Below are positions 17,061-46,226 of a DNA stretch of 64,000 nt, in pieces. Source of the DNA: an uncultured virus (IMG/VR IMGVR_UViG_3300039191_000526). Its lineage: Duplodnaviria > Heunggongvirae > Uroviricota > Caudoviricetes. Position numbers and translations under genes: made by a program. Numbering within the stretch: position 1 is the first letter of the stretch; each line of letters begins with the position of its first letter. Under the pieces are notes generated by a model, which saw only the letters and a program-made list of their open reading frames with translations, was not told the DNA's origin and ran no database searches. The stretch is from the IMG/VR virus record IMGVR_UViG_3300039191_000526. One strand, given 5' to 3'.

Positions 17061-17357
17061 TTATTCATCCCCTTTAATTAAATTATAAATAGTTAAAATT
17101 TTATCTAATAAGTCTTGATTAATTGATTCAGTTACATATCCTATACTTATAGTTGCAAATTCAGAATCAATAAAATCACTTGTTACATTTTTATGATGAA
17201 TATTTAACTTTATATTATTTTCTTTTAAAATGCTTACAAGTTTGTGATTTTTATTATTTAATAAAGAATAATAATAGACTTTTTTATATTTCTTATTAAT
17301 TATATTTTTAAAATTTTTCATATGAATATTACCTTTATTAAAAGCTATTCTGGGCAT
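17061..17357 (-). CDS. Hypothetical protein, shared C-terminal helix (LDKILTIYNLIK)
   Basis: AGGAGG SD. Confidence 0.6.
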   Translation of the reverse strand: MPRIAFNKGNIHMKNFKNIINKKYKKVYYYSLLNNKNHKLVSILKENNIKLNIHHKNVTSDFIDSEFATISIGYVTESINQDLLDKILTIYNLIKGDE

Positions 17358-17369
17358 TTCATCTCCTCC

Positions 17370-17582
17370 TTATATGCTATTAAGTATTTCACAATATTCA
17401 TAAAAATTATCTAATTTTTCTTTATAATTAAAACTAACTTTAATTGAATTATTATTAAGAAAAGTACAATTTAAATTTAATTTTTTAGTAAGAGTAATAA
17501 TCTTATTTAATGCTTCAGTTTTTACTTTTAAAGTTTTATTATTTTTAGTATTAATATCTTTAGTATGTACAATTAAATTCAT
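17370..17582 (-). CDS. Hypothetical protein
   Basis: ORF in operon. Confidence 0.55.
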   Translation of the reverse strand: MNLIVHTKDINTKNNKTLKVKTEALNKIITLTKKLNLNCTFLNNNSIKVSFNYKEKLDNFYEYCEILNSI

Positions 17583-17585
17583 TTT

Positions 17586-17855
17586 TTATTCTCCTTTATT
17601 ATTTATATTATAAAATTTATAACCACAATATAATTGAAGTAAAAATCCTATTACCATAATAGTTATAGATAATTTTGGTGTATAACTTCCAATTTTAGAA
17701 ATTTTATTTAATATATTAATTCTATATAAAGTAGGTGTTTTATTAAATATATATATTTCTCTATATCTAAACCACCCTAAAAAACCTATCATAATAAAAA
17801 TTAACGCTACTACATATATAAAATCATATAATAAATTTAATTTTTTTTTATTCAT
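17586..17855 (-). CDS. Two-TM membrane protein
   Basis: Two hydrophobic segments. Confidence 0.6.
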   Translation of the reverse strand: MNKKKLNLLYDFIYVVALIFIMIGFLGWFRYREIYIFNKTPTLYRINILNKISKIGSYTPKLSITIMVIGFLLQLYCGYKFYNINNKGE

Positions 17856-17873
17856 TTTAATAATTTTCCTTTC

Positions 17874-18197
17874 TTAATATAAATTAATAGTGGTTAAAAT
17901 AGTATTTAATTGATCTTCTGTACAAGGTCCAATTAAACATATTAAGATTTTACCTGTATTATCACGTCCTGCTTTAATTTTAATGTCCATTTGTTGGGAA
18001 ATATCATATACTTTTTTAATATTATTAACACTAATTATTTCAATTTTATTTTTAATATTATTTTCCCCTTTAAAAACTTGTTCCATTAACCCCATTGCCA
18101 TTCCCATTCCACTCCAAGAATTACCTAATTGTCTCCCAATATTTCTTTGAAGATTTTTTAGTTCAAATAAATAATGCTTCTTTTTCACTATAATCAC
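17874..18197 (-). CDS. Degenerate Pth2-like (IGP) family protein
   Basis: IGRQ ... CLIGPCTEDQLNTILTTINLY. Confidence 0.55.
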   Translation of the reverse strand: MIIVKKKHYLFELKNLQRNIGRQLGNSWSGMGMAMGLMEQVFKGENNIKNKIEIISVNNIKKVYDISQQMDIKIKAGRDNTGKILICLIGPCTEDQLNTILTTINLY

Positions 18198-18492
18198 CTT
18201 TTAATTGTAATTTTAATGATAATAATTGAGATTCTATAAAATTTTCTTCTCCTACTATATATATTAAAATAACATTGTAATTTTCAGAATCTTCAATAGG
18301 ATAAATAGTTTTAATTTTATTTTCATCTATATTAAAATTATAAATGATTTTATCTAATAGTGTTGAATTAACATAAATAAATTGTTTTTTTAATATTTTA
18401 GATGATAATTCATCACCTGGTGATAAACATTCTTTAATTTCATTTTTATATAATCCTTTATATTTTGTACGGCATAAAATAAATTCTTTCAT
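18163..18492 (-). CDS. Hypothetical protein, shared C-terminal helix (IESQLLSLKLQ)
   Basis: ORF in operon. Confidence 0.6.
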   Translation of the reverse strand: MKEFILCRTKYKGLYKNEIKECLSPGDELSSKILKKQFIYVNSTLLDKIIYNFNIDENKIKTIYPIEDSENYNVILIYIVGEENFIESQLLSLKLQLKGDYSEKEALFI

Positions 18493-18494
18493 TA

Positions 18495-18818
18495 TTATTC
18501 CCCCAATAATTTAATACTAGTACTAAAAGCATCAATTTTATTTTTTTCACAAGGGCCAACAATAACACCTTGAGGAATGTGTTTAGTTATTCCAGAACCA
18601 TCAACAACTTTATTAAATAAACCTTGCTTTTCGGCAATTTTAGCAATTTTACTATAATCTTGATCAGTATTAATTATTTTAGTTTCTATATTACAATCAA
18701 TTACTTTATTTAGAAATTTATCTTGTTTATTAATTATTTTATTAAAATGTTCTTCTTTATAACTGTATATATTTAAATCATTTTTATCATACATCATAAT
18801 TAATCTCTTTAATTCCAT
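18495..18818 (-). CDS. Degenerate Pth2-like (IGP) family protein
   Basis: KIAEKQGL..VVDGSGIT..PQGVIVGPCEKNKIDAFSTSIKLL resembles the Pth2 C-half. Confidence 0.55.
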   Translation of the reverse strand: MELKRLIMMYDKNDLNIYSYKEEHFNKIINKQDKFLNKVIDCNIETKIINTDQDYSKIAKIAEKQGLFNKVVDGSGITKHIPQGVIVGPCEKNKIDAFSTSIKLLGE

Positions 18819-18835
18819 TTAATCATTCCTCCTTT

Positions 18836-19174
18836 TTATAATAACTTACTTATAGTACCAAAAGAATTAATTTTTTTAATAGAATCAGGTCCAATTATAA
18901 CTCCCTGGGGTATATCTTTTTTTGATCCTCCCCAGATAATTTTATTAAATAAATTTTGATCATCAGCTTCATTGGAAATTTTTCGAAAATTTATATCTTT
19001 ATTCTCAATAAATTCCTCTTCTATTTTATCAATTTTTTTATTAAAGTTATTATTAATTATTTTTTGTAAAAGATCATCTTGTATATCTGTTATTTTAATT
19101 AAATTTTCCCCACCATATACATCACAATCTAAATCTAATTTATTATGCACTATAACTAATCTTTTTAATTTCAT
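18836..19174 (-). CDS. Degenerate Pth2-like family protein, close paralog of 18495
   Basis: MKLKRL start; IPQGVIIGPD. Confidence 0.55.
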   Translation of the reverse strand: MKLKRLVIVHNKLDLDCDVYGGENLIKITDIQDDLLQKIINNNFNKKIDKIEEEFIENKDINFRKISNEADDQNLFNKIIWGGSKKDIPQGVIIGPDSIKKINSFGTISKLL

Positions 19175-19175
19175 A

Positions 19176-19439
19176 TTATTTATCCCCCATATATTCATTT
19201 ATAACTTCTTGTATAATTCTTTTTAATTCATCATCGTTTTCTAGCTTCTCTTGGGCACCTCTAATGCCCTCTATAAACTCTTTAAATTCATCCATAGGTT
19301 TATTATACCATTCACTATAAGGGTTTAATATGCATGATGAGGCACCCTGACAATTCCCATTACATTTTAAATTAACCGGATCACATTGTTCACAATCTTC
19401 ATAATCATAAATACATTCATCAAAATCAATCATTATCAT
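19176..19439 (-). CDS. Small Cys-rich protein
   Basis: Six Cys in the N-terminal half; own promoter at 19464-19492. Confidence 0.65.
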   Translation of the reverse strand: MIMIDFDECIYDYEDCEQCDPVNLKCNGNCQGASSCILNPYSEWYNKPMDEFKEFIEGIRGAQEKLENDDELKRIIQEVINEYMGDK

Positions 19440-19492: not shown

Positions 19493-19559
19493 CAAAATTT
19501 TAATAAAATTTATAAAAAAATACCATAAGAGGAATTCCCCTTATGGTATCAATTAATTA

Positions 19560-19997
19560 TTATCCATTTCTCCAAGCCTCTTCAATATATCCAATATCTT
19601 CTTCGGTAAAATCTGTTCCAAATTTTTCATTAAGTTTATCTGCTACAAATCCTTTTAATTCTCCTAATTTCTTATCAGAATGCCTATTTAATAAAGTGGA
19701 AAATTCTATTCCAATAAATTCAGAATAATATGGAATAGATGCATTTGTAAAATCAGTACCTTCCACTAATTCATAAGAATCAAAATATTCTTTACCATAA
19801 GCAATTTTATCTTCCCTAGTAAAATTATCAGGATCTTCATGCTCATCTAAATAATATAAATAATCTTTTTTAGCTCTTTCATTAAAAGTTTCAACATATA
19901 AATCATCACAGTTTTCTTTAACTTCATCAAAATTTAATCCTAACGCTACAAAACTTGAACTAGAACTATTGGTAACAAATCCATTTCTAATCTTCAT
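19560..19997 (-). CDS. FVTNSSSSSF-motif protein 1
   Basis: N-terminus MKIRNGFVTNSSSSSF; AAGGAG SD. Confidence 0.85.
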   Translation of the reverse strand: MKIRNGFVTNSSSSSFVALGLNFDEVKENCDDLYVETFNERAKKDYLYYLDEHEDPDNFTREDKIAYGKEYFDSYELVEGTDFTNASIPYYSEFIGIEFSTLLNRHSDKKLGELKGFVADKLNEKFGTDFTEEDIGYIEEAWRNG

Positions 19998-20014
19998 ATT
20001 ATCACTCCTTAAAA

Positions 20015-20404
20015 TTATCTTGTTTGGTCTTTAATTATATGTATATTTTCAAAGAAAGGTTTAATACCTTGAAGGGCCATTTTATATTCAATATCATTAC
20101 ATCCTTGATCTAAAATACCACCAACATAAATCATTTCTCCTTTTTTTAATCTTTTTTTACATTTACCATATTCTTCACTAATATAATTATCTTTGTTTAA
20201 TGTTGAATGTAATTGGGCAATTGTTTTAGGGAAACAATATTTTTCCATAAAAACTTGATCTAACTCTTTTAAAGATGTAATTTTATCAGAATAATTAGAT
20301 AAATCAATTTTATAGCCATCTATATTTTTATTTAATTCTTTTTTAGATGAAATAATAAAACTTGAACTAGAACTATTAGTAACAAATCCATTTCTAATCT
20401 TCAT
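20015..20404 (-). CDS. FVTNSSSSSF-motif protein 2
   Basis: Start moved to ATG 20404 so it begins MKIRNGFVTNSSSSSF; body paralogous to protein 3. Confidence 0.85.
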   Translation of the reverse strand: MKIRNGFVTNSSSSSFIISSKKELNKNIDGYKIDLSNYSDKITSLKELDQVFMEKYCFPKTIAQLHSTLNKDNYISEEYGKCKKRLKKGEMIYVGGILDQGCNDIEYKMALQGIKPFFENIHIIKDQTR

Positions 20405-20408
20405 ATTA

Positions 20409-20801
20409 TTACCTTCTTTCATCACGAATAACAGTTAAATTACTTGTATCTAATGTTTCTTCAATTCCTTTTTGATTTAATAACATTTCTACACCCTCAA
20501 AAGCTTCACTTGAAATATTGCCAATATAAATTTTTTCTCCATTTTTTATTTTTTCTTTACAATCTTTATATTCATTTGCAATATATTCATTTTCTTTTAA
20601 CAATTTTTTAAAGCCTTCAGTTGTGTGAGGATAAGCATAATTTTCCATAAAATATTGATCTAACTCTTTTAATGATTTAATTTTTGTACTATATTCTGAT
20701 AAATCAACTTCCATATTAACTTTTGCTTTAGATTTATCATGAGTACTTACAATAAAACTTGAACTAGAACTATTAGTAACAAATCCATTTCTAATCTTCA
20801 T
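20409..20801 (-). CDS. FVTNSSSSSF-motif protein 3
   Basis: Same N-terminus; DLS.YS.KI.SLKELDQ.FME.Y shared with protein 2. Confidence 0.85.
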   Translation of the reverse strand: MKIRNGFVTNSSSSSFIVSTHDKSKAKVNMEVDLSEYSTKIKSLKELDQYFMENYAYPHTTEGFKKLLKENEYIANEYKDCKEKIKNGEKIYIGNISSEAFEGVEMLLNQKGIEETLDTSNLTVIRDERR

Positions 20802-20815
20802 ATTATCACCTCTTT

Positions 20816-21442
20816 TTAATATTTTAAATTCAAATTAGCATGAACTGATCGATAATTTTCATATTCTGATTTTACATGTTTATTAACAGTAAAATTCATA
20901 TTCATAGCATTTTTTATTCTTATTTTATGTTTTTTATCAATTATCATTTTTAAGATTGAATCAATTTTTCTTTCATCTTTAATAATAGTACCATCTTTTT
21001 CTTTATCAATATATTTTATTTTATTATCGTTGATACAAACATTTTTATATTGTGATGTTTGATGAGGGAGACAATATTTTACCTCAATAGTATAGCTAAT
21101 ATGTTTTTTAGCATTATTAGATAAAAATTTTCTTAACGATAGAATTTTACTTTTATCAAAATTATGATCTATCAAAACTGTTTCTGAATGATCTATTAAA
21201 ATAATTTCTTTAGGAAGAATTTTAATAGATTTAATAAAACTTCCTGTTTGATAAATATAAAATTGTTTACTAGGATTATCTTTTTCATACATAACAGCTT
21301 TATGGCCATCTGGATATACATCATGAGGACCATGTCCAGTTCCTCCTCCATCTTTACAAGTAAAACATACTATATATTCTTTATCACTATTAGGGAATCT
21401 TTCACTTTTAACTATATCTCCAATTTTTAATTTTCTTTCCAT
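20816..21442 (-). CDS. Hypothetical two-domain protein (GGGTGHGPHDVYPDGH motif)
   Basis: AGGAGG SD. Confidence 0.65.
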   Translation of the reverse strand: MERKLKIGDIVKSERFPNSDKEYIVCFTCKDGGGTGHGPHDVYPDGHKAVMYEKDNPSKQFYIYQTGSFIKSIKILPKEIILIDHSETVLIDHNFDKSKILSLRKFLSNNAKKHISYTIEVKYCLPHQTSQYKNVCINDNKIKYIDKEKDGTIIKDERKIDSILKMIIDKKHKIRIKNAMNMNFTVNKHVKSEYENYRSVHANLNLKY

Positions 21443-21931
21443 TTAAATCCCTCCTATAATTTTATATGAAATATAAATTAAATAAAATGAATTAAATAAT
21501 GCTAATGATTTATTTAATTTTTTCATATCTATATTAAGTTCATTTTTAAAAGTAGAATTACTACTTAATATAGAAATAGTTATATTTATTAGAGCAACAT
21601 TCATAGCACTATGAGAAACAATAAATCTTATTATAAAAAATAAATATATAAAATATATAAACTCAATAAAATAATAAAATAAAATAAATTTTTTAATTTG
21701 ACTTTCTATTTTTTCTATTTTATTTTGATATAATTTTTGCATTTGTAGTTGTTTTGTAAAAATTGTAAATTTTCTTGTATTAATCTTACATTTTTTATTT
21801 ATTTTTTCTTTTATTTTATTATATTCATCTTCTTTTTTATTTAACCATTTTTGTTGTGGGGTAACTGTAAAATTATCCCAAATAAAAAGAAAAGCAAAAA
21901 GGAGGTTAACTAAAATTATTATTAAATCCAT
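21443..21931 (-). CDS. Membrane protein
   Basis: Several hydrophobic segments. Confidence 0.55.
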   Translation of the reverse strand: MDLIIILVNLLFAFLFIWDNFTVTPQQKWLNKKEDEYNKIKEKINKKCKINTRKFTIFTKQLQMQKLYQNKIEKIESQIKKFILFYYFIEFIYFIYLFFIIRFIVSHSAMNVALINITISILSSNSTFKNELNIDMKKLNKSLALFNSFYLIYISYKIIGGI

Positions 21932-21971
21932 AATATTTTTGCTCCTTTAAAAATATTTAATAAAAAAAATA

Positions 21972-22316
21972 TTATTTTTTTAACTTTTTTGACAATAAAA
22001 ATGCTTCTAATGTTTCATCATTATATTCTGAATATTTAATAATTTTATAGTTTGGTTCTATACTTTTTAAATCAGAAATTGTAAACTCTTTTTGAGATTG
22101 ATTCTCAAATAATTTTTCATGGAGTGTTTTTGGTTCTTTATTATTTTTATTCCAAGATGATTTTCTATTAATCATCTTTTTTATTTGGTTAGCAAAATTA
22201 GCATTTTTTGATTTATTATTTATAATTTCTTTATAATCGCCTGATTGTAACTCTATACGTAATCCATCATGTTCTTCATATAATTTTTCAAAATCTTTGA
22301 CACTTAACTTATTCAT
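21972..22316 (-). CDS. Hypothetical protein (family with 11554/26324), shared C-terminal helix (LEAFLLSKKLKK)
   Basis: AAGGAGG SD before MNKL at 22316. Confidence 0.65.
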   Translation of the reverse strand: MNKLSVKDFEKLYEEHDGLRIELQSGDYKEIINNKSKNANFANQIKKMINRKSSWNKNNKEPKTLHEKLFENQSQKEFTISDLKSIEPNYKIIKYSEYNDETLEAFLLSKKLKK

Positions 22317-22428
22317 TTTTATCCTCCTTATTAGGTTGAGGGGGATCAACTTCTTGGGCTAACAACATCAATCGACCAAAAAACCATGTAAAGAATACTA
22401 AAAATATTATAAAACCTATTATTTCCAT
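22309..22428 (-). CDS. 39-aa single-TM peptide (MEIIGFIIFLVFF...)
   Basis: Translated by hand; AAGGTGA SD. Confidence 0.5.
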   Translation of the reverse strand: MEIIGFIIFLVFFTWFFGRLMLLAQEVDPPQPNKEDKNE

Positions 22429-22439
22429 ATTATCACCTT

Positions 22440-22754
22440 CTATATTATTCCTTTAAGTTTTAATATTATCTTAAAACAATCTAATTTTTCTTGTGAAGTA
22501 GGTCCAATTTGGACTGCTACTATTGTATTTGGATGACCATTAATGATATATTGACCTAAACTATCTTGTTCAGCAATTATATGCATAGCACCAGTTTCTA
22601 TTGCTAAATCTTTTACTTTATGTATTAAATTATCTTTAACACCAATTCCATTTACTGGTTCTTTAGGTAAAGATATATTAGAATTTTGATCAGCAAATAA
22701 TTTCCACGTAGGGATAGATTCATTATAATATATATCTTTTTTGATTAAAAACAC
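22440..22754 (-). CDS. Degenerate Pth2-like (IGP) family protein
   Basis: PNTIVAVQIGPTSQEKLDCFKIILKL. Confidence 0.55.
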   Translation of the reverse strand: MFLIKKDIYYNESIPTWKLFADQNSNISLPKEPVNGIGVKDNLIHKVKDLAIETGAMHIIAEQDSLGQYIINGHPNTIVAVQIGPTSQEKLDCFKIILKLKGII

Positions 22755-22783
22755 CTCCTTTCTATAGGAATATTTTTTAATTA

Positions 22784-23905
22784 TTATATAATATCTTTTT
22801 TGTCTCGTTCACATAAAACTATTTCAGGAACAACTGGACAACCACCTAAACATTCATTATAATCACTACACTCATTACATGATGTATTAAAGTGATTTCT
22901 AAAATTATCAAATGTATCTGATTTCCATGCATTTTCTATTGTATCATTTGAAATATCATAGCCCCACTTTTGTTTTTGATCAAAAGAACATGGTGTTGCA
23001 ATTAAATCTGCTGTAATATACATAGACCATCTTCCACCTTCACAAGTATCAATACTAGCTCTATTAATATTATTAGTTAAATTAATAATCCCTGGCACAT
23101 TACAAGAATCGAATCCAATTTGAAAATTTAAATCTTTTTCTTTCATTAAATCATCAATTGTTTTATAAAACTCTTTAACTTTAGGATCATTATAATCTAA
23201 AACATTATCTTGACTCCCTAAGCCTACTGGTTTATGTAACAAAAATATTACAGCATTTATACCATCATCAAAACCATTATTTTTTAATTTATTAATAGCA
23301 TCATCAATAGAATTATTTGATAATACATAATGAATATTAGTAGTTACACCAGCATTTACGAATTTTTTAATAGCTCTTCTAGTATGAGGTTGGTTATATT
23401 CTGATACTGCAACAGCTCCACAAAATTCTTTTGTTATTTCAACTTCTCTATCAGTTAAATCTAAACCAGAGGTAGTATAATTAGGAATTATATTATTTTG
23501 TTTACAATAAGAAACTAACCTTTTAAAGTTTTCATGTTTATTAACATCACCTCTTCCCCCTAGAGCTAATTGAAATGTTTTACCTTTACACTCATCAACA
23601 ATTTTTTTAAAATCTTCAAAAGACATATTATCTTTATGAGTATTTAATCCATCTTGATAACATTCAACTCCTGATTTAATACATAACCCTGATTCTCCAT
23701 GAATACAATGTCCCATTACTCCGACATCTATTAACTCGGGAAAATTAGTCATAAAAGGATCTTTTCCAGTATCTTCACCATTTTCTAAAATTCCACTTCT
23801 CATATAAAACCCATTTTCTAAATTAAACATTGATTTAAACTTATTTTCCCTATCAGTTTTAACCATAACATTTCCTTGTTTTGTAGATGTAATTGAATTA
23901 GCCAT
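22784..23905 (-). CDS. Radical SAM / SPASM-domain protein with non-canonical CX7CX6C motif
   Basis: CIHGESGLCIKSGVECYQ, LGGRGD, YTTSG, GFDSC, SPASM CEGG...PCSF...CxxCxxxxxCxGGC. Confidence 0.88.
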   Translation of the reverse strand: MANSITSTKQGNVMVKTDRENKFKSMFNLENGFYMRSGILENGEDTGKDPFMTNFPELIDVGVMGHCIHGESGLCIKSGVECYQDGLNTHKDNMSFEDFKKIVDECKGKTFQLALGGRGDVNKHENFKRLVSYCKQNNIIPNYTTSGLDLTDREVEITKEFCGAVAVSEYNQPHTRRAIKKFVNAGVTTNIHYVLSNNSIDDAINKLKNNGFDDGINAVIFLLHKPVGLGSQDNVLDYNDPKVKEFYKTIDDLMKEKDLNFQIGFDSCNVPGIINLTNNINRASIDTCEGGRWSMYITADLIATPCSFDQKQKWGYDISNDTIENAWKSDTFDNFRNHFNTSCNECSDYNECLGGCPVVPEIVLCERDKKDII

Positions 23906-24122
23906 TTAAATTCCTCCTTATGATTTTTTTGATTTTACTTAATATTTTATATTTTAATGAAAATTCCACATTTATATTATTAATTTTACTTTCAATATTA
24001 TTAAATTTATTTTCTATATTATCTAAACAATTATTAGTCTTTCTTTTAATCCTATTATTTAATTCATTATTTTCTTTTTCTATTTTAGATATAATATTTT
24101 GATTATCTTTAATTGGATTCAT
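23898..24122 (-). CDS. Small coiled-coil protein (C-terminus SLKYK.L.KI shared with 24532 ORF)
   Basis: GGAGG SD. Confidence 0.55.
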   Translation of the reverse strand: MNPIKDNQNIISKIEKENNELNNRIKRKTNNCLDNIENKFNNIESKINNINVEFSLKYKILSKIKKIIRRNLNG

Positions 24123-24134
24123 TTTATTACCTCC

Positions 24135-24341
24135 TCATTCAATTTTATTGATAATCATAGAATTAATATTATAATTTTGTTCACCATATTTATGTTTTAA
24201 GCCTTTTTTTACTTCTTTTTTTACTTTCTCTTTATTATCACTTGATCTAAATAAAGTTTTCTTTAAGACACCTAAATTTTCACCACAACAGGTATTAATA
24301 ATTTCTATATCAATATTAATTTTAAATTTTATTAAATCCAT
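24135..24341 (-). CDS. Hypothetical protein
   Basis: AGGAGG SD. Confidence 0.55.
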   Translation of the reverse strand: MDLIKFKINIDIEIINTCCGENLGVLKKTLFRSSDNKEKVKKEVKKGLKHKYGEQNYNINSMIINKIE

Positions 24342-24514: not shown

Positions 24515-24543
24515 ATTATACCATACTACAATTATTTTGTAAA
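24515..24543 (-). promoter_or_regulatory. Sigma-A-like promoter upstream of the radical SAM gene cluster
   Basis: TTTACA-17 nt-TATAAT with TG. Confidence 0.7.
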
Positions 24544-43143: not shown

Positions 43144-43833
43144 TTAATTTCTAATTTGAACATTAGAAATATATTTATTAGCAATTTTTTTAAACTCTTT
43201 TAATTTTTTTTCGGGAAAACTATTAATATTTAATAAATCCTTATCTAAGGTGTTTTGAGGTTTGAAATTTTGAATATAATATTGTTTAGATCCTTTTATT
43301 AATTTAACTATTTTTTCTATATCTTTATTATTATGAAAATTTGGAACTACTGTTGTTCTAAATTCATAATCTATATTATTATTTTGTATTATTTTTATAG
43401 ATTTTTTTATTTGATTAATATATTTATTACTCCCTGTAAGGCACTCTTGATTACTAGAATGGGCTTTTAAGTCCATTGCAATATAATCAATAAGTTGATC
43501 TTTTAACAGTTCCTGAATGACCTCTGGGTTGGTTCCATTGGTATCTAATTTAATTTTTAATCCCATATTTTTTAGTGTTATTATAAAATTTTTTAAATTA
43601 GATTGTAAAGTAGGTTCTCCCCCTGTGATACAAACTCCATCTAAAACTTTTTTTCTACCTTCAAGAAAATTTAAAATTTGATCTATATTAATTCCTTCAT
43701 TATCATTATTATTAATTAACTCACTATTATGACAATATGGACAATTTAAATTGCACCCAGAGGTAAATAATGTTGTAACAATATGTTCAGGATAATCAAT
43801 CATTGACGTTTTAACAATACCAGAGATTTTCAT
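43144..43833 (-). CDS. nrdG: Anaerobic RNR activating enzyme (radical SAM)
   Basis: SMIDYP, GCNLNCPYCHN, TGGEPTL, KLDTNG, YEFRTT. Confidence 0.93.
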   Translation of the reverse strand: MKISGIVKTSMIDYPEHIVTTLFTSGCNLNCPYCHNSELINNNDNEGINIDQILNFLEGRKKVLDGVCITGGEPTLQSNLKNFIITLKNMGLKIKLDTNGTNPEVIQELLKDQLIDYIAMDLKAHSSNQECLTGSNKYINQIKKSIKIIQNNNIDYEFRTTVVPNFHNNKDIEKIVKLIKGSKQYYIQNFKPQNTLDKDLLNINSFPEKKLKEFKKIANKYISNVQIRN

Positions 43834-44201: not shown

Positions 44202-46226
44202 TTATTCTTCAGAATAATTACTTTCTGCATCACATTTTGGACAATATTCATGAGCTCCAGGTAAATAACCATGAGTTGGACAAACAGAAAATGTTGGTGT
44301 GATTGAATAATAAGGTAACTCATAATTATCAGCAATTCTCTTTACTAATTTTTTAGTGGATTCAATAGATGGCATTTTTTCACCTAAAAATCCATGTAAA
44401 ACTGTTCCACCAGTATATCTCTTTTGAAGATCATCTTGTAAATCTAATGCTTCAAAAATATCATTAGTACATCCAACTGGCAATTGAGTGGAATTAGTAT
44501 AATAAGGTTCTACATCATCTGAAATTACCCTATCTTGATTTGCAAAAATAATATCTGTACCAAATTCTTCTTTGTCTAATTTTGCAAATCGATATGTTGT
44601 TCCTTCTCCTGGAGTTGCTTCTAGATTATAAATATTACCTGTTTCTTCTTGGTATTCTTGTAATCTATCTCTCATTACATCCATTAATTTAATTGCAAAT
44701 TCTTTACCTTTAGAAGTAGCAATATCTTTCCCCATAAAGTTTAATAAAGCTTCATTTACTCCTAAAAGACCAATAGTATTAAAATGGTTTTTCCAATATT
44801 GGTCAAATCTTTGTTTTACAGATCTTAAATAAAATTTACTATATGGATACAATCCACCTTCAGTTAATTTTTCTAATAATTCCCGTTTAATTTCTAAACT
44901 TTCTTTAGCTAAATCCATTAATTCTAATACTTTATCAATAAATTCTTCTTTAGTTTCAGCTTGATAACCAATTCGTGGCATATTAACTGTTACTACTCCA
45001 ATACTACCAGTCATAGGATTTGACCCAAATAGTCCTCCACCTTTTTTACGTAACTCTCTATTATCTAATCTCAATCTACAACACATTGATCTTACATCAG
45101 ATGGATCCATATCAGAATTAACAAAATTTGAGAAATATGGTGTTCCATATTTTGCTGTCATTTTCCAAATTGGATCTAATAATTCATTTTCCCAATCAAA
45201 ATCAGGAGTTATATTATAAGTTGGAATTGGAAATGAAAAGATTCTTCCTTTTTTATCCCCTTCTAACATAACTTCAGCAAAAGCTTTATTTACCATATCA
45301 ACTTCATCTTGAAATTCTTTATATGTTCTTTCTTTTGGTTCTCCACCAATAATAACTGGTTCATCTGCTAAAATATCAGGAACTTTTAAATCCATTGTAA
45401 TATTAGTAAATGGAGTTTGAAAACCGACCCTTGTTGGAACATTTAAATTAAATATAAACTCTTGCATTGCTTGTTTTACTTCTTCATATTCTAAATTATC
45501 ATATGCAATAAAAGGAGCTAATAATGTATCAAAATTTGATACGGCTTGTGCACCTGCTGCTTCCCCTTGTAATGTATAAAAGAAATTAACTAATTGTAAT
45601 AATGCAGTACCAAAGTGCTTAGGAGCACCACTTTCAACTTTTCTTTCTACACCACTAAATCCATTTAATAAAATATCCTTTAAATCCCATCCACAACAAT
45701 AAACTGAAAGATTACCTAAATCGTGAATATGTAGGTCACCTGATACATGTTTTTCACGGATATTTTGTGGATATACTTTTTGTAACCAATATTGTGATGT
45801 TACTTCAGAAGCAATATGGTTATTTAACCCTTGTAAAGAATACCCCATATTAGAATTTTCTTTTATTTTCCAATCTAAATTATTAACATATTTATCAATC
45901 GTATTTATAGAATCTTCAAATATTTTTTTTGTATTTCTCATATTTTTATGTTGTTCTCTATATAAAATATATGATTTAGCAACTTGTTGATAATTTTTCA
46001 TTAAATAAAATTCAACAATATCCTGTACTTGTTCAACTGAAATTATTTCTTTTTTATCATAATAGTCTTCTAAATCTGATATAACTAAATCTGTAATTGC
46101 TTTACCAATGTTATTTGGATTATCCTTATTAGTTGCCACCGCAGCTTTAGTAATTGCTTGTTTAATTTTTTGTTCATTAAATTCTACTTCTCTTCCATCA
46201 CGTTTTTTTATTTTTTCTATTGTCAT
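44202..46226 (-). CDS. nrdD: Anaerobic ribonucleoside-triphosphate reductase with ATP-cone, ending before the glycyl-radical loop
   Basis: KKRDGR cone, HIHDL, YCCGW, FPIPT, RSMCCRL, EATPGE, YTGGT, ends CPTHG...CPKC. Confidence 0.95.
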   Translation of the reverse strand: MTIEKIKKRDGREVEFNEQKIKQAITKAAVATNKDNPNNIGKAITDLVISDLEDYYDKKEIISVEQVQDIVEFYLMKNYQQVAKSYILYREQHKNMRNTKKIFEDSINTIDKYVNNLDWKIKENSNMGYSLQGLNNHIASEVTSQYWLQKVYPQNIREKHVSGDLHIHDLGNLSVYCCGWDLKDILLNGFSGVERKVESGAPKHFGTALLQLVNFFYTLQGEAAGAQAVSNFDTLLAPFIAYDNLEYEEVKQAMQEFIFNLNVPTRVGFQTPFTNITMDLKVPDILADEPVIIGGEPKERTYKEFQDEVDMVNKAFAEVMLEGDKKGRIFSFPIPTYNITPDFDWENELLDPIWKMTAKYGTPYFSNFVNSDMDPSDVRSMCCRLRLDNRELRKKGGGLFGSNPMTGSIGVVTVNMPRIGYQAETKEEFIDKVLELMDLAKESLEIKRELLEKLTEGGLYPYSKFYLRSVKQRFDQYWKNHFNTIGLLGVNEALLNFMGKDIATSKGKEFAIKLMDVMRDRLQEYQEETGNIYNLEATPGEGTTYRFAKLDKEEFGTDIIFANQDRVISDDVEPYYTNSTQLPVGCTNDIFEALDLQDDLQKRYTGGTVLHGFLGEKMPSIESTKKLVKRIADNYELPYYSITPTFSVCPTHGYLPGAHEYCPKCDAESNYSEE

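What the first reader, a model, noticed from the sequence alone, without database searches (positions are those of the whole stretch)
19560..23905. Candidate phage protein-modification system: radical SAM/SPASM enzyme plus three proteins with an invariant MKIRNGFVTNSSSSSF N-terminus
Seen: three adjacent genes begin with the identical 16-residue MKIRNGFVTNSSSSSF, then diverge (proteins 2 and 3 are paralogs; protein 1 looks different). About 2 kb upstream on the same strand, downstream of the 24515-24543 promoter, is a radical SAM enzyme with CX7CX6C instead of CX3CX2C, a GFDSC motif and a SPASM domain. Known: SPASM radical SAM enzymes mostly modify peptides or proteins (anSME makes formylglycine from Ser/Cys; PqqE, AlbA, MftC). 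Inference: the NSSSSS peptide is the enzyme's recognition or modification tag on full-size target proteins, perhaps generating a cofactor or crosslink at Ser. I do not know of a characterised function for this pairing.
Basis: partly seen in the sequence, partly recalled or inferred. Interest (0 to 1): 0.86.

Follow-up and report, generated by a model that had tools for sequence, protein, structure and literature searches.

The report
Phage radical-SAM enzyme with tagged proteins
A large phage of an anaerobe encodes an iron-sulfur "radical SAM" enzyme in one operon with three small proteins that all start with the same 16-residue serine-rich tag; the same enzyme-plus-tag pairing recurs in many phages and in some bacterial defence gene clusters, so it is probably an undescribed protein-modification system.

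Summary
Three adjacent minus-strand genes start MKIRNGFVTNSSSSSF, and a radical SAM/SPASM gene with CX7CX6C lies 2 kb upstream in the same promoter-to-terminator unit.

The tag is a widespread, protein-level-conserved N-terminus (M-K-x-R-x-G-F-V-S/T-N-S-S-S-x-S-F) on hundreds of small, mostly acidic phage proteins with unrelated tails.

- **Tag-anchored loci:** 44 of 63 viral contigs also hold a relative of this enzyme.
- **Enzyme-anchored loci:** 74 of 80 hold tags within 10 kb. All 318 tags lie on the enzyme's strand.
- **Fold model:** the tag is left disordered, outside the globular tail.
- **Complex model:** the tag threads into the enzyme barrel, scoring 0.79 against 0.00 for the best control, onto the family's invariant residues.
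- **Clade marker:** Thr9 tags occur only with full-SPASM enzymes. This is a single event on the tree.

My best reading is that the tag is the handle and probable modification site of the enzyme. The chemistry is unknown; a Phe7-Ser/Thr9 cross-link is my leading guess.

One complete phage has nine tags and no such enzyme, which counts against this reading.

I found no description in Pfam, NCBIfam or the papers searched. Earlier agents of this scan reported the same system on other DNA.

The parts
24515..24543 (-). sigma-70-like promoter candidate (TTTACA, 17 nt spacer, TG-TATAAT) at the head of the unit
   Evidence: 11 of 12 matches with an extended -10. Such sites are not above chance overall in this AT-rich region.
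24135..24341 (-). 68-aa ORF, first gene after the promoter, no known family
   Evidence: No relative in any fetched locus.
23898..24122 (-). 74-aa ORF overlapping the enzyme's start, no known family
22784..23905 (-). radical SAM/SPASM enzyme, 373 aa. It has an N-terminal beta-sheet element, a CX7CX6C cluster motif (C67, C75, C82), GFDSC at 264-268, and a full CX2CX5CX3C SPASM tail.
   Evidence: (phrog_7293, 2.4e-22); nearest folds are SuiB, CteB, SkfB and anSMEcpe.
22440..22754 (-). 104-aa ORF directly after the enzyme. It belongs to a second local paralog family (see noticed in passing) and has no tag.
21972..22349 (-). 125-aa ORF, no family, no tag
21443..21931 (-). 162-aa ORF with hydrophobic stretches, no family, no tag
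20816..21442 (-). 208-aa ORF, phrog_7702 (function unknown), no tag
   Evidence: 1.6e-10
20409..20801 (-). tagged protein W3, 130 aa. The tag is coded by 20754-20801. The tail is a folded alpha/beta domain.
20015..20404 (-). tagged protein W2, 129 aa, paralog of W3. The tag is coded by 20357-20404. Its ribosome-binding site lies inside the end of W3.
19560..19997 (-). tagged protein W1, 145 aa, from a different tail family. The tag is coded by 19950-19997.
19519..19550 (-). intrinsic-terminator-like hairpin (14-bp stem, T run) 10 nt after the stop of W1

Best explanation
This is an early operon of a large lytic phage of an anaerobe. A peptide-modifying type of radical SAM enzyme, with a SPASM iron-sulfur domain, is made together with three small proteins that carry a 16-residue N-terminal tag, MKIRNGFVTNSSSSSF.

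I propose that the tag is a portable handle. Its basic start (K2, R4) pairs as a beta-strand with the enzyme's N-terminal beta-sheet element. Its invariant F7-V8-(S/T)9-N10-S11-S12 core reaches into the enzyme barrel beside SAM. There the enzyme abstracts a hydrogen atom and installs a covalent change on the tag. One enzyme would thus serve many unrelated, fast-evolving, mostly acidic proteins, much as one RiPP maturase serves many precursors with a shared leader.

- **Shown here:** the tag exists and is conserved at the protein level, tag and enzyme are genetically linked, and the enzyme has the fold class of peptide maturases.
- **Modelled, not shown:** the docking of the tag in the enzyme.
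- **Inferred:** that a modification occurs. My leading guess for its nature is a Phe7-to-Ser/Thr9 beta-carbon cross-link of the triceptide kind. Oxidation of a Ser to formylglycine is second.
- **Also inferred:** that the tagged proteins act in host takeover or counter-defence.
For: **The tag is real and selected as protein.**
All 167 have K2 and R4, and 122 have the identical MKIRNGFVSNSSSSSF.
- The share of same-residue codons that are identical is only 0.51 within contigs and 0.43 between contigs. Synonymous sites therefore drift while the peptide is held.

**The tails are unrelated.**
- 170 tails fall into 62 BLAST clusters.
- Lengths run from 56 to 315 aa.
- 90% of 591 tails have pI below 5.5.

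**Tag and enzyme are linked.**
- 36 of 63 tag-anchored contigs hold the enzyme within 10 kb, and 8 of the other 27 hold it elsewhere in the record.
- 74 of 80 enzyme-anchored loci hold tags. All 318 tags are on the enzyme's strand and none on the other strand in 1.47 Mb; 266 lie downstream.
- No other gene family is shared by more than 13 of the 63 contigs.
- Of this window's operon, only the enzyme and the tagged proteins have relatives in the fetched loci.
- An isolated E. coli T4-like phage has the enzyme and two tagged proteins.

**The tag is not part of the fold.** In the AF2 model of W3 (mean pLDDT 83.5), residues 1-10 average pLDDT 43 and residues 1-29 have no secondary structure.

**The complex model supports binding.**
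- The score is 0.79 (runs 0.78, 0.79, 0.80), against 0.00 for the best of 3 controls.
- That mark was reached by 116 of 157 solved complexes and 2 of 215 mismatched pairs.
- The runs agree in at least 53% of contacts, and the partner's pLDDT is 46-58.
- Contacts run from tag residues 1-14 and 16-17 to enzyme residues 31-38 and to the barrel strands.
- 16 of the family's 30 invariant columns lie among the 40 interface residues (hypergeometric p = 7e-10).

**The enzyme has a peptide-maturase fold.** The best fold matches are SuiB (E 2e-12), CteB, SkfB, anSMEcpe and PqqE.

**Tag residue 9 tracks the enzyme clade.** Of 97 distinct enzymes, 15 of 15 with the full SPASM motif go with Thr9 tags, and 80 of 82 four-Cys enzymes go with Ser9 tags.

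**There is a chemical precedent.** SPASM enzymes are known that link Phe C4 to the beta-carbon of a Ser two residues on (review PMC11002830, passage read).
Against: - **No chemistry observed.** Nothing here shows a mass change or SAM cleavage.
- **Tags without the enzyme.** One complete phage record (132.5 kb, terminal repeats, 100% complete by CheckV) has 9 tag-like sites. It has no match to the enzyme profile or to Pfam Radical_SAM. A 79%-complete record has 5 tags and only unrelated radical SAM genes.
- **Enzyme missing from many contigs.** 19 of 63 tag contigs show no enzyme. 17 of those 19 are at most 40% complete.
- **Limits of the counts.** They come from capped scans. Loci partly overlap, and related phages are not independent.
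- **Thr9 link is one event.** It is a single change on the tree, so it is a clade marker and not replicated covariation.
- **Limits of the complex model.** It used my own alignments and carried small molecules, which the calibration did not. The partner's fold confidence is low. Solved maturase-peptide complexes exist (SuiB-SuiA, anSME-peptide), so the pass may partly be from memory.
- **Odd cluster motif.** This enzyme's cluster motif is non-canonical, and the loop at residues 70-80 is poorly modelled.
- **Gene order here.** In this window, four untagged genes separate the enzyme from the tag genes, unlike most loci.
Confidence: 0.65

Rival explanations
1. The tag is a docking handle only. 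The tagged proteins are interchangeable adaptor or regulatory subunits that plug into the enzyme, directing or switching it towards other targets such as host proteins, nucleic acids or small molecules. The tag itself is not chemically changed.
For: The tails are very diverse, as adaptors would be. The complex model shows binding but cannot show chemistry. Earlier notes of this scan mention fused enzyme-tag forms, which I did not test.
Against: In the model, F7 and its neighbours fill the centre of the barrel next to the SAM-binding strands, at residues 112-116, 140-144, 163-166 and 188-192. That leaves no room for another substrate. The nearest folds are all enzymes that modify the bound peptide.
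Confidence: 0.12
2. The tag has a function of its own that does not need the enzyme, such as a targeting signal (like the capsid-targeting sequence shared by T4 internal proteins), a degron or an export signal. The radical SAM gene would then be merely a frequent neighbour in the same variable region.
For: A complete phage keeps 9 tags without the enzyme. Tag genes form arrays of diverse small proteins in variable regions, as T4 internal-protein genes do (this comparison is recalled, not tested). The three tags in this window are near-identical at the DNA level, which would favour recombination at the tag.
Against: 74 of 80 enzyme loci carry tags on the same strand, and no other family is comparably linked. 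Enzyme clade and tag variant go together. The complex model passes its controls. Bacterial cassettes keep a single tagged protein directly in front of the enzyme.
Confidence: 0.1
3. The shared N-terminus is the conserved core strand or catalytic loop of one fast-evolving fold. The three genes would then be ordinary paralogs.
For: W2 and W3 are true paralogs with a shared tail fold. phrog_7397 groups some tagged proteins as one family.
Against: The model leaves residues 1-29 without secondary structure, with pLDDT 43 for residues 1-10, while the tail folds confidently. The tails fall into 62 clusters and include forms with Cys-rich, zinc-ribbon-like tails. Matches to phrog_7397 cover only residues 1-18 to 1-29.
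Confidence: 0.03
4. The conserved element works at the nucleic-acid level, for example as a translation-initiation or regulator-binding site in the mRNA.
For: In this window, about 57 nt including the ribosome-binding region are identical in the three genes. This window ranks highest (0.96) among 79 contigs with at least 3 tags.
Against: Across contigs only 43% of same-residue codons are identical, and within contigs 51%. The E. coli phage uses different codons for the same peptide.
Confidence: 0.02

Closest known systems
SuiB-SuiA (streptide), CteB and SkfB: radical SAM/SPASM or twitch maturases of ribosomal peptides
   Same: These are the best fold matches: SuiB 5V1Q/5V1S/5V1T at E about 2e-12 with TM 0.62, CteB 5WHY, and SkfB 6EFN. 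SkfB is also the best real sequence match in the PDB, at 4.9e-5. In both cases one enzyme recognises a conserved N-terminal stretch of its substrate and works on it inside the barrel.
   Different: No RRE (winged helix) is present; the N-terminal element is four beta-strands. The substrates would be whole proteins of 56-315 aa with unrelated tails, not short precursors. The conserved stretch is at residue 1 and is probably itself the reaction site. The tag has no Cys, Lys-Trp or similar pair. The setting is phage early operons.
Triceptide enzymes (3-CyFEs: XncB, OscB, MscB)
   Same: These are SPASM radical SAM enzymes that link an aromatic ring to the beta-carbon of residue i+2. MscB links Phe C4 to Ser C-beta (review PMC11002830, passage read). 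The tag has an invariant F7-V8-S/T9, and the model puts F7 at the barrel centre.
   Different: At E 0.1 or better, the NCBIfam scan of this enzyme listed eleven families. By my reading of their names, none is a triceptide maturase. I do not know the accessions of those models, so I could not check that they are in the library. Known substrates are short peptides, often with repeated motifs. No chemistry was tested here.
Anaerobic sulfatase-maturing enzymes (anSMEcpe, AtsB)
   Same: The fold match is good (4K36, TM 0.60). They act on a Ser or Cys of a full-size protein and have a full SPASM domain with two auxiliary clusters, as this window's enzyme probably does.
   Different: The target motif (C/S-x-P/A-x-R, recalled) is absent from the tag. 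No sulfatase is present. No anSME model appears among the NCBIfam hits.
HXS anti-phage system (radical SAM-matured effector with His-x-Ser repeats; PMC13128918, listing and abstract seen)
   Same: A radical SAM maturase and a Ser-containing target protein are used in phage-bacterium conflict.
   Different: The motif is different (HxS repeats), the effector is periplasmic, and the system is bacterial. No sequence relation was tested.
Capsid-targeting sequence of the T4 internal proteins, and prochlorosin-type 'one enzyme, many precursors' systems (both recalled from general knowledge)
   Same: Arrays of diverse genes share only a short conserved N-terminal sequence that is read by one machine.
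   Different: No link to a prohead protease or a lanthipeptide synthetase is seen.

Membership tests
Radical SAM superfamily | CX3CX2C (or a close variant) binding the SAM-cleaving 4Fe-4S cluster | tested here: inconclusive
   This protein has CX7CX6C (C67, C75, C82); the column of the usual middle Cys holds Gly79. 84 of 94 relatives have C..CxxC[YF]K. Three Cys in the right loop are present, but the spacing is unusual and the loop is poorly modelled.
Radical SAM superfamily | partial TIM-barrel fold with SAM-binding strands; match to Pfam PF04055 | tested here: met
   175 PDB matches at E 0.001 or better. All 33 chains listed are radical SAM enzymes by their entry titles, except NifB (7BI7) and AbmM (8WM2), which I class as radical SAM from recall. 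PF04055 does not hit this protein but hits a bacterial relative at 49 bits.
SPASM domain (PF13186 / TIGR04085) | C-terminal Cys-rich domain with CX2CX5CX3C | tested here: met
   PF13186 scores 21.9 bits against a cut-off of 21.5. TIGR04085 scores 21 bits, below its cut-off of 27. The motif CNECSDYNECLGGC is present. Most relatives (84 of 94) lack it and keep four conserved Cys, which is twitch-like.
RiPP maturases with an RRE | N-terminal PqqD-like winged-helix recognition element | tested here: not met
   No PqqD or RRE hit in Pfam. Residues 1-64 are modelled as beta-strands only.
anSME (sulfatase maturase) | match to the family model and a target with C/S-x-P/A-x-R | tested here: not met
   No anSME model among the NCBIfam hits. 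The tag lacks the motif (the motif itself is recalled).
Triceptide 3-CyFE | aromatic-x-x motif in the substrate | tested here: met
   F7-V8-S/T9 is present. In 613 tag proteins picked by a pattern that allowed F/Y at 7, V/I/L at 8 and S/T/A/G at 9, F is about 100%, V 96% and S+T 99%.
Triceptide 3-CyFE | enzyme belongs to the XncB/OscB/MscB families | tested here: inconclusive
   The eleven NCBIfam hits at E 0.1 or better (GeoRSP, tungsten-cofactor maturase, mycofactocin, NirJ2, the SPASM domain, spiro-SPASM, TIGR04083, PqqE, SkfB and two unrelated ones) all score below their cut-offs. None is named as a triceptide maturase. I did not confirm that those models are in the library.
phrog_7293 (phage radical SAM, function unknown) | full-length match to the profile | tested here: met
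   E 2.4e-22, residues 7-352 matching profile positions 10-355 of 384.
phrog_7397 (tagged proteins of T4-like enterobacterial phages) | full-length match to the profile | tested here: not met
   Only residues 1-18 to 1-29 match, at E 4e-4 to 6e-3. The E. coli phage protein matches over its full length at 5e-119.

The most novel reading that the evidence does not exclude
Phages carry a general protein-tagging system. A single radical SAM enzyme installs a covalent cross-link or oxidation on a 16-residue N-terminal tag, perhaps a Phe7-Ser/Thr9 cyclophane. That modification switches on, stabilises or routes a changing arsenal of small acidic host-takeover or anti-defence proteins. Bacteria use the same enzyme-tag module inside an Avs-like protease/STAND defence cassette, so the tag chemistry is a shared currency of phage-host conflict.
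Probability: 0.3. Interest if true: 0.9.

Novelty: new variant of a known kind. Interest (0 to 1): 0.8.

Why it matters
If the tag is modified, this would be a radical SAM system that works on whole, unrelated proteins through a portable N-terminal tag rather than on a dedicated short peptide.

It is widespread. It appears in large phages from 22% G+C anaerobe phages to cultivable T4-like phages of E. coli, Klebsiella, Enterobacter and Cronobacter, and in bacterial defence-type cassettes.

It would give a function to hundreds of "hypothetical" early phage genes. It would define a new enzyme-substrate rule that can be tested in E. coli phages. It could also yield a short genetically encoded tag for enzyme-directed protein modification.

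Tried and rejected
- **tblastn of W3 and W1 against isolated phages.** Almost nothing was found, probably because the low-complexity filter masks the Ser run. The pattern scans were the way in.
- **Word-based protein search with W3.** It found only the protein itself.
- **Whole-genome search.** No genome is held for this window.
- **First collection pattern.** It had too few fixed bases. I added the ATG and re-sent it.
- **ESM Atlas for W1.** Only unnamed viral clusters came back.
- **NCBIfam and Pfam for tagged proteins.** No family was found.
- **PDB sequence search.** The top rows are pentatricopeptide repeats; I reject these as a repeat artefact of many stretches of about 5 bits each.
- **Glycyl-radical-type reading of R4-x-G6-F7.** Rejected, because G6 is replaced by S, D, C, K or N in some tags.
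- **RNA-level element.** Rejected on codon drift.
- **Thr9/full-SPASM link as replicated covariation.** Rejected, because it is one change on the tree and the independent-pairs test has no power.
- **Paper searches.** 'NSSSSSF' gave 0 papers, 'FVSNSS' gave 3 irrelevant ones and 'FVTNSS' gave 2 irrelevant ones. 'Radical SAM + phage + serine-rich + N-terminal' gave 0.
  - 'SPASM + bacteriophage + radical SAM' gave 6, none on this system by their titles and abstract starts. I read passages of only one, the eLife 2020 paper, which describes a different rSAM system with a C-terminal FxSxx motif.
  - 'Radical SAM + Slopekvirus' gave 1, which only annotates the gene as a predicted peptide-modifying enzyme.
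  - 'Radical SAM + STAND + antiphage + peptide' gave 10, with HXS the nearest.

Full report
**What is in the window**

The window is 22% G+C. It carries the replication and recombination genes of a large lytic phage: UvsX-like recombinase, SbcCD-like nuclease, single-strand-binding proteins, primase, helicase and PhoH. It also carries an anaerobic ribonucleotide reductase with its activase, so the host is probably an anaerobe.

Nearly all genes around the finding are on the minus strand. Three adjacent genes begin with MKIRNGFVTNSSSSSF:

- 20409-20801 (W3, 130 aa)
- 20015-20404 (W2, 129 aa from the ATG)
- 19560-19997 (W1, 145 aa)

A degenerate pattern for the motif hits only these three places in 64 kb, and none in 100 shuffles. 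Each ATG is preceded by a Shine-Dalgarno-like AGGAG/AGAGG, so residue 1 of the tag is the true start.

The radical SAM/SPASM gene is at 22784-23905. Four untagged small genes lie between it and W3. A promoter-like site (24543-24515) and a strong terminator-like hairpin (19550-19519, directly after W1) bracket the whole set as one probable transcription unit. Promoter-like matches are not above chance in this AT-rich DNA, so the promoter is only a candidate.

**The tag elsewhere**

I scanned IMG/VR contigs for ATG-N9-NGF[VIM][ST]NSSSSSF.

- The 167 distinct proteins all have K at position 2 and R at position 4, although the pattern left those codons free. 122 carry the identical MKIRNGFVSNSSSSSF.
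- With a looser expression, 613 distinct tagged proteins from viral and prokaryote loci give the consensus M-K-(I/T/V)-R-x-G-F-V-S-N-S-S-S-(S/T/A/C)-S-F followed by two hydrophobic residues. Positions 11 and 12 were fixed by the expression, and some others were restricted.
- The tag sits at residue 1 in 164 of 198 ORF calls. The rest are upstream alternative starts.
- Tails are unrelated: 170 tails fall into 62 BLAST clusters. Lengths are 56-315 aa. 90% of 591 tails have pI below 5.5.
- For this window, the tail pI is 4.28 for W1, 5.29 for W3 and 8.68 for W2.
- 69 of 613 tails are Cys-rich and zinc-ribbon-like.

Selection acts on the peptide and not on the DNA. The share of same-residue codons that are identical is 0.51 within contigs and 0.43 between contigs.

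This window is the extreme case. 14-15 of 15 codons are identical, the top of 79 contigs with at least three tags. About 57 nt, including the ribosome-binding region, are the same in all three genes. I read this as local homogenisation by gene conversion or recombination at the tag. It is a feature of this phage and not of the system.

**Linkage to the enzyme**

Starting from tags:

- 36 of 63 contigs with at least 10 kb held contain a relative of the enzyme within the held DNA.
- A search of the whole records finds it in 8 of the other 27.
- Of the 19 still without it, 17 are at most 40% complete.

Starting from the enzyme (profile of 31 relatives):

- 74 of 80 loci hold at least one tag within 10 kb.
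- All 318 tag matches are on the enzyme's strand and none on the other strand in 1.47 Mb. 266 of them lie downstream, often beginning right after the enzyme's stop, with up to 11 per locus.

Other evidence for linkage:

- In an all-against-all comparison of the neighbourhoods, the enzyme is the only family shared widely, by 38 of 63 contigs. The next family is in 13.
- Of the ten genes of this window's unit and five flanking genes, only the enzyme, W1, W2 and W3 have relatives in any fetched locus.
- 171 isolated phage records hold a 26-27% identical enzyme. They are mostly T4-like phages of Klebsiella, Enterobacter, Cronobacter, Citrobacter and Escherichia.
- The one I examined, an E. coli phage, also has two proteins starting MKIRSGFVSNSSSSSF, about 20 kb from the enzyme. 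One of them is the founding type of phrog_7397.

**Evidence against a strict dependence**

One record with terminal repeats, rated 100% complete (132.5 kb), has nine tag-like sites. It has no match to the enzyme profile or to Pfam Radical_SAM. A 79%-complete record has five tags and only unrelated radical SAM genes.

Either the host supplies the enzyme, or another enzyme does the job, or the tag has a use of its own.

**The enzyme**

The family has three conserved features:

- an N-terminal element (YNYxFNxxTGFFARWGKTxEDDP in most members)
- a cluster loop
- the invariant residues Q112, A114, G116, N142, T144, G163, N190, H192, G264-D266-S267-C268 (GFDSC), C288-E289, and C306-S307-F308

84 of 94 relatives have a canonical C..CxxC[YF]K and only four conserved C-terminal Cys, which is twitch-like. 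This window's enzyme belongs to a small clade that lacks the usual middle Cys (Gly79) and uses Cys75 instead, giving CX7CX6C. Its close relatives have other odd spacings. The clade also has the full CX2CX5CX3C SPASM motif.

The AF2 model (pLDDT 81.4) shows four N-terminal beta-strands, then the barrel. Its best PDB matches are peptide and protein maturases: SuiB, CteB, TigE, SkfB, anSMEcpe, PqqE and ChlB. No curated NCBIfam or PADLOC model claims it.

**Tag and enzyme together**

The fold model of W3, built on 17 relatives (pLDDT 83.5), leaves residues 1-29 without secondary structure. Residues 1-10 average pLDDT 43, while residues 30-130 fold confidently. The tag is therefore not modelled as a buried strand.

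The complex model used the enzyme, SAM, three 4Fe-4S clusters and residues 1-40 of W3.

- It supports binding but does not show it. The score is 0.79 (0.78, 0.79, 0.80), against 0.00 for the best of three controls.
- That mark was reached by 116 of 157 solved complexes and 2 of 215 mismatched pairs.
- The runs agree in at least 53% of contacts, and the partner's pLDDT is 46-58.
- The counts hold only roughly here. I supplied my own alignments, small molecules rode along, and solved maturase-peptide complexes could give a pass from memory.

In the model, tag residues 2-5 pair with enzyme residues 32-36. F7 touches residues 112, 140, 142, 163, 164 and 188 on the barrel strands. 16 of the 30 invariant enzyme columns lie among the 40 interface residues (p = 7e-10).

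**A clade marker**

Thr at tag position 9, as in this window, occurs only with full-SPASM enzymes. Among 97 distinct enzymes, 15 of 15 full-SPASM ones go with Thr9 tags. 80 of 82 four-Cys ones go with Ser9 tags; of the other two, one goes with Ala9 and one with Thr9. No locus mixes Ser9 and Thr9.

On the tree this is one change, so it is not replicated covariation. It does show that position 9 is not a free Ser/Thr site, unlike positions 13 and 14. It also places this window's enzyme with the bacterial form.

**Bacterial form**

The tag also occurs in prokaryote assemblies: 113 stretches, with 36 of 54 loci of at least 10 kb holding the enzyme. Many are metagenome bins that may be phage contigs.

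Isolates of Veillonella parvula, Lachnobacterium bovis and Acetatifactor muris, together with several bins, share a cassette with this gene order:

1. metallo-beta-lactamase nuclease (LmuA/Avs1a-like)
2. trypsin-like protease fused to a STAND NTPase (Avs2-like, 925 aa)
3. a 136-aa protein
4. one tagged 137-aa protein
5. the enzyme
6. a 302-aa protein

Verrucomicrobia, Sulfuricurvum and Terriglobales bins keep the STAND protein, the tagged protein and the enzyme. This places the module in phage-host conflict, but I did not test defence.

**Mechanism and chemistry**

I commit to the reading that the tag is both the handle and the site of a radical SAM modification (0.65).

For the chemistry, the invariant F7-x-S/T9, the modelled position of F7 and the clade-specific residue 9 fit a three-residue cyclophane. 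A review reports such a link for MscB, from Phe C4 to Ser C-beta at i and i+2 (PMC11002830, passage read). Oxidation of a Ser, as in anSME, is second. An ether or other cross-link cannot be excluded. None of this is shown.

**Prior knowledge**

Pfam, NCBIfam and PADLOC have no model for the tagged proteins. PHROGs lists both families as function unknown. The paper searches listed under Tried and rejected found no description. [quoted passage not shown]

Earlier agents of this scan reported the same enzyme-plus-tag system on other DNA at least eight times. Those are unchecked AI notes and not independent evidence. Their mention of bacterial defence loci led me to the genome scan, which I then checked myself. 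Their mention of fused enzyme-tag forms I did not test.

Noticed in passing
window 17061-19198 and 22440-22754, minus strand: A second local paralog family. Six ORFs of about 100-120 aa share a C-terminal stretch of the form h-h-I-G-P-x4-(L/I)-x2-F-x3-h-K-L-x-G. They are 22440-22754, 18836-19198, 18495-18818, 18163-18492, 17874-18197 and 17061-17357. One of them lies directly after the radical SAM gene, and the others lie just past the terminator. No family is known, and no relatives appear in the fetched loci.
   Followed up: partly
window 19950-20010, 20357-20417, 20754-20814: The three tag-coding segments and about 10 nt upstream are near-identical at the DNA level, with one synonymous change. 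This is the highest codon identity among 79 contigs with at least three tags. It suggests recent gene conversion or recombination at the tag in this phage.
   Followed up: partly
window 43144-43833 and 44202-46226, minus strand: NrdG-like activase (a second radical SAM protein) and the NrdD-like anaerobic ribonucleotide reductase. They point to an anaerobic host, which suits oxygen-sensitive radical SAM chemistry.
   Followed up: no
L248 5648-12349 (Veillonella parvula), likewise L292 and L231: A conserved bacterial cassette with this gene order: MBL nuclease (LmuA/Avs1a-like), trypsin-STAND NTPase (Avs2-like), a 136-aa protein, a tagged 137-aa protein, a radical SAM/SPASM enzyme, and a 302-aa protein. 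The 136-aa and 302-aa proteins have no family.
   Followed up: partly
record behind L047 (G008), 77.8-103.7 kb: A complete 132.5-kb phage record with nine tag-like sites in three groups. It has no relative of the enzyme and no Pfam Radical_SAM match.
   Followed up: partly
L079 around 11685 (plus strand): An 85-aa zinc-ribbon-like protein homologous to the tails of tagged proteins but without the tag. Tags can therefore be lost or gained.
   Followed up: no
L214 12063-13919: All four tags of this locus read M-K-x-R-Q-S-F-V-A-N-S-S-S-S-S-F, with Ser6 and Ala9. This is a genome-wide coherent tag variant alongside a canonical four-Cys enzyme.
   Followed up: no
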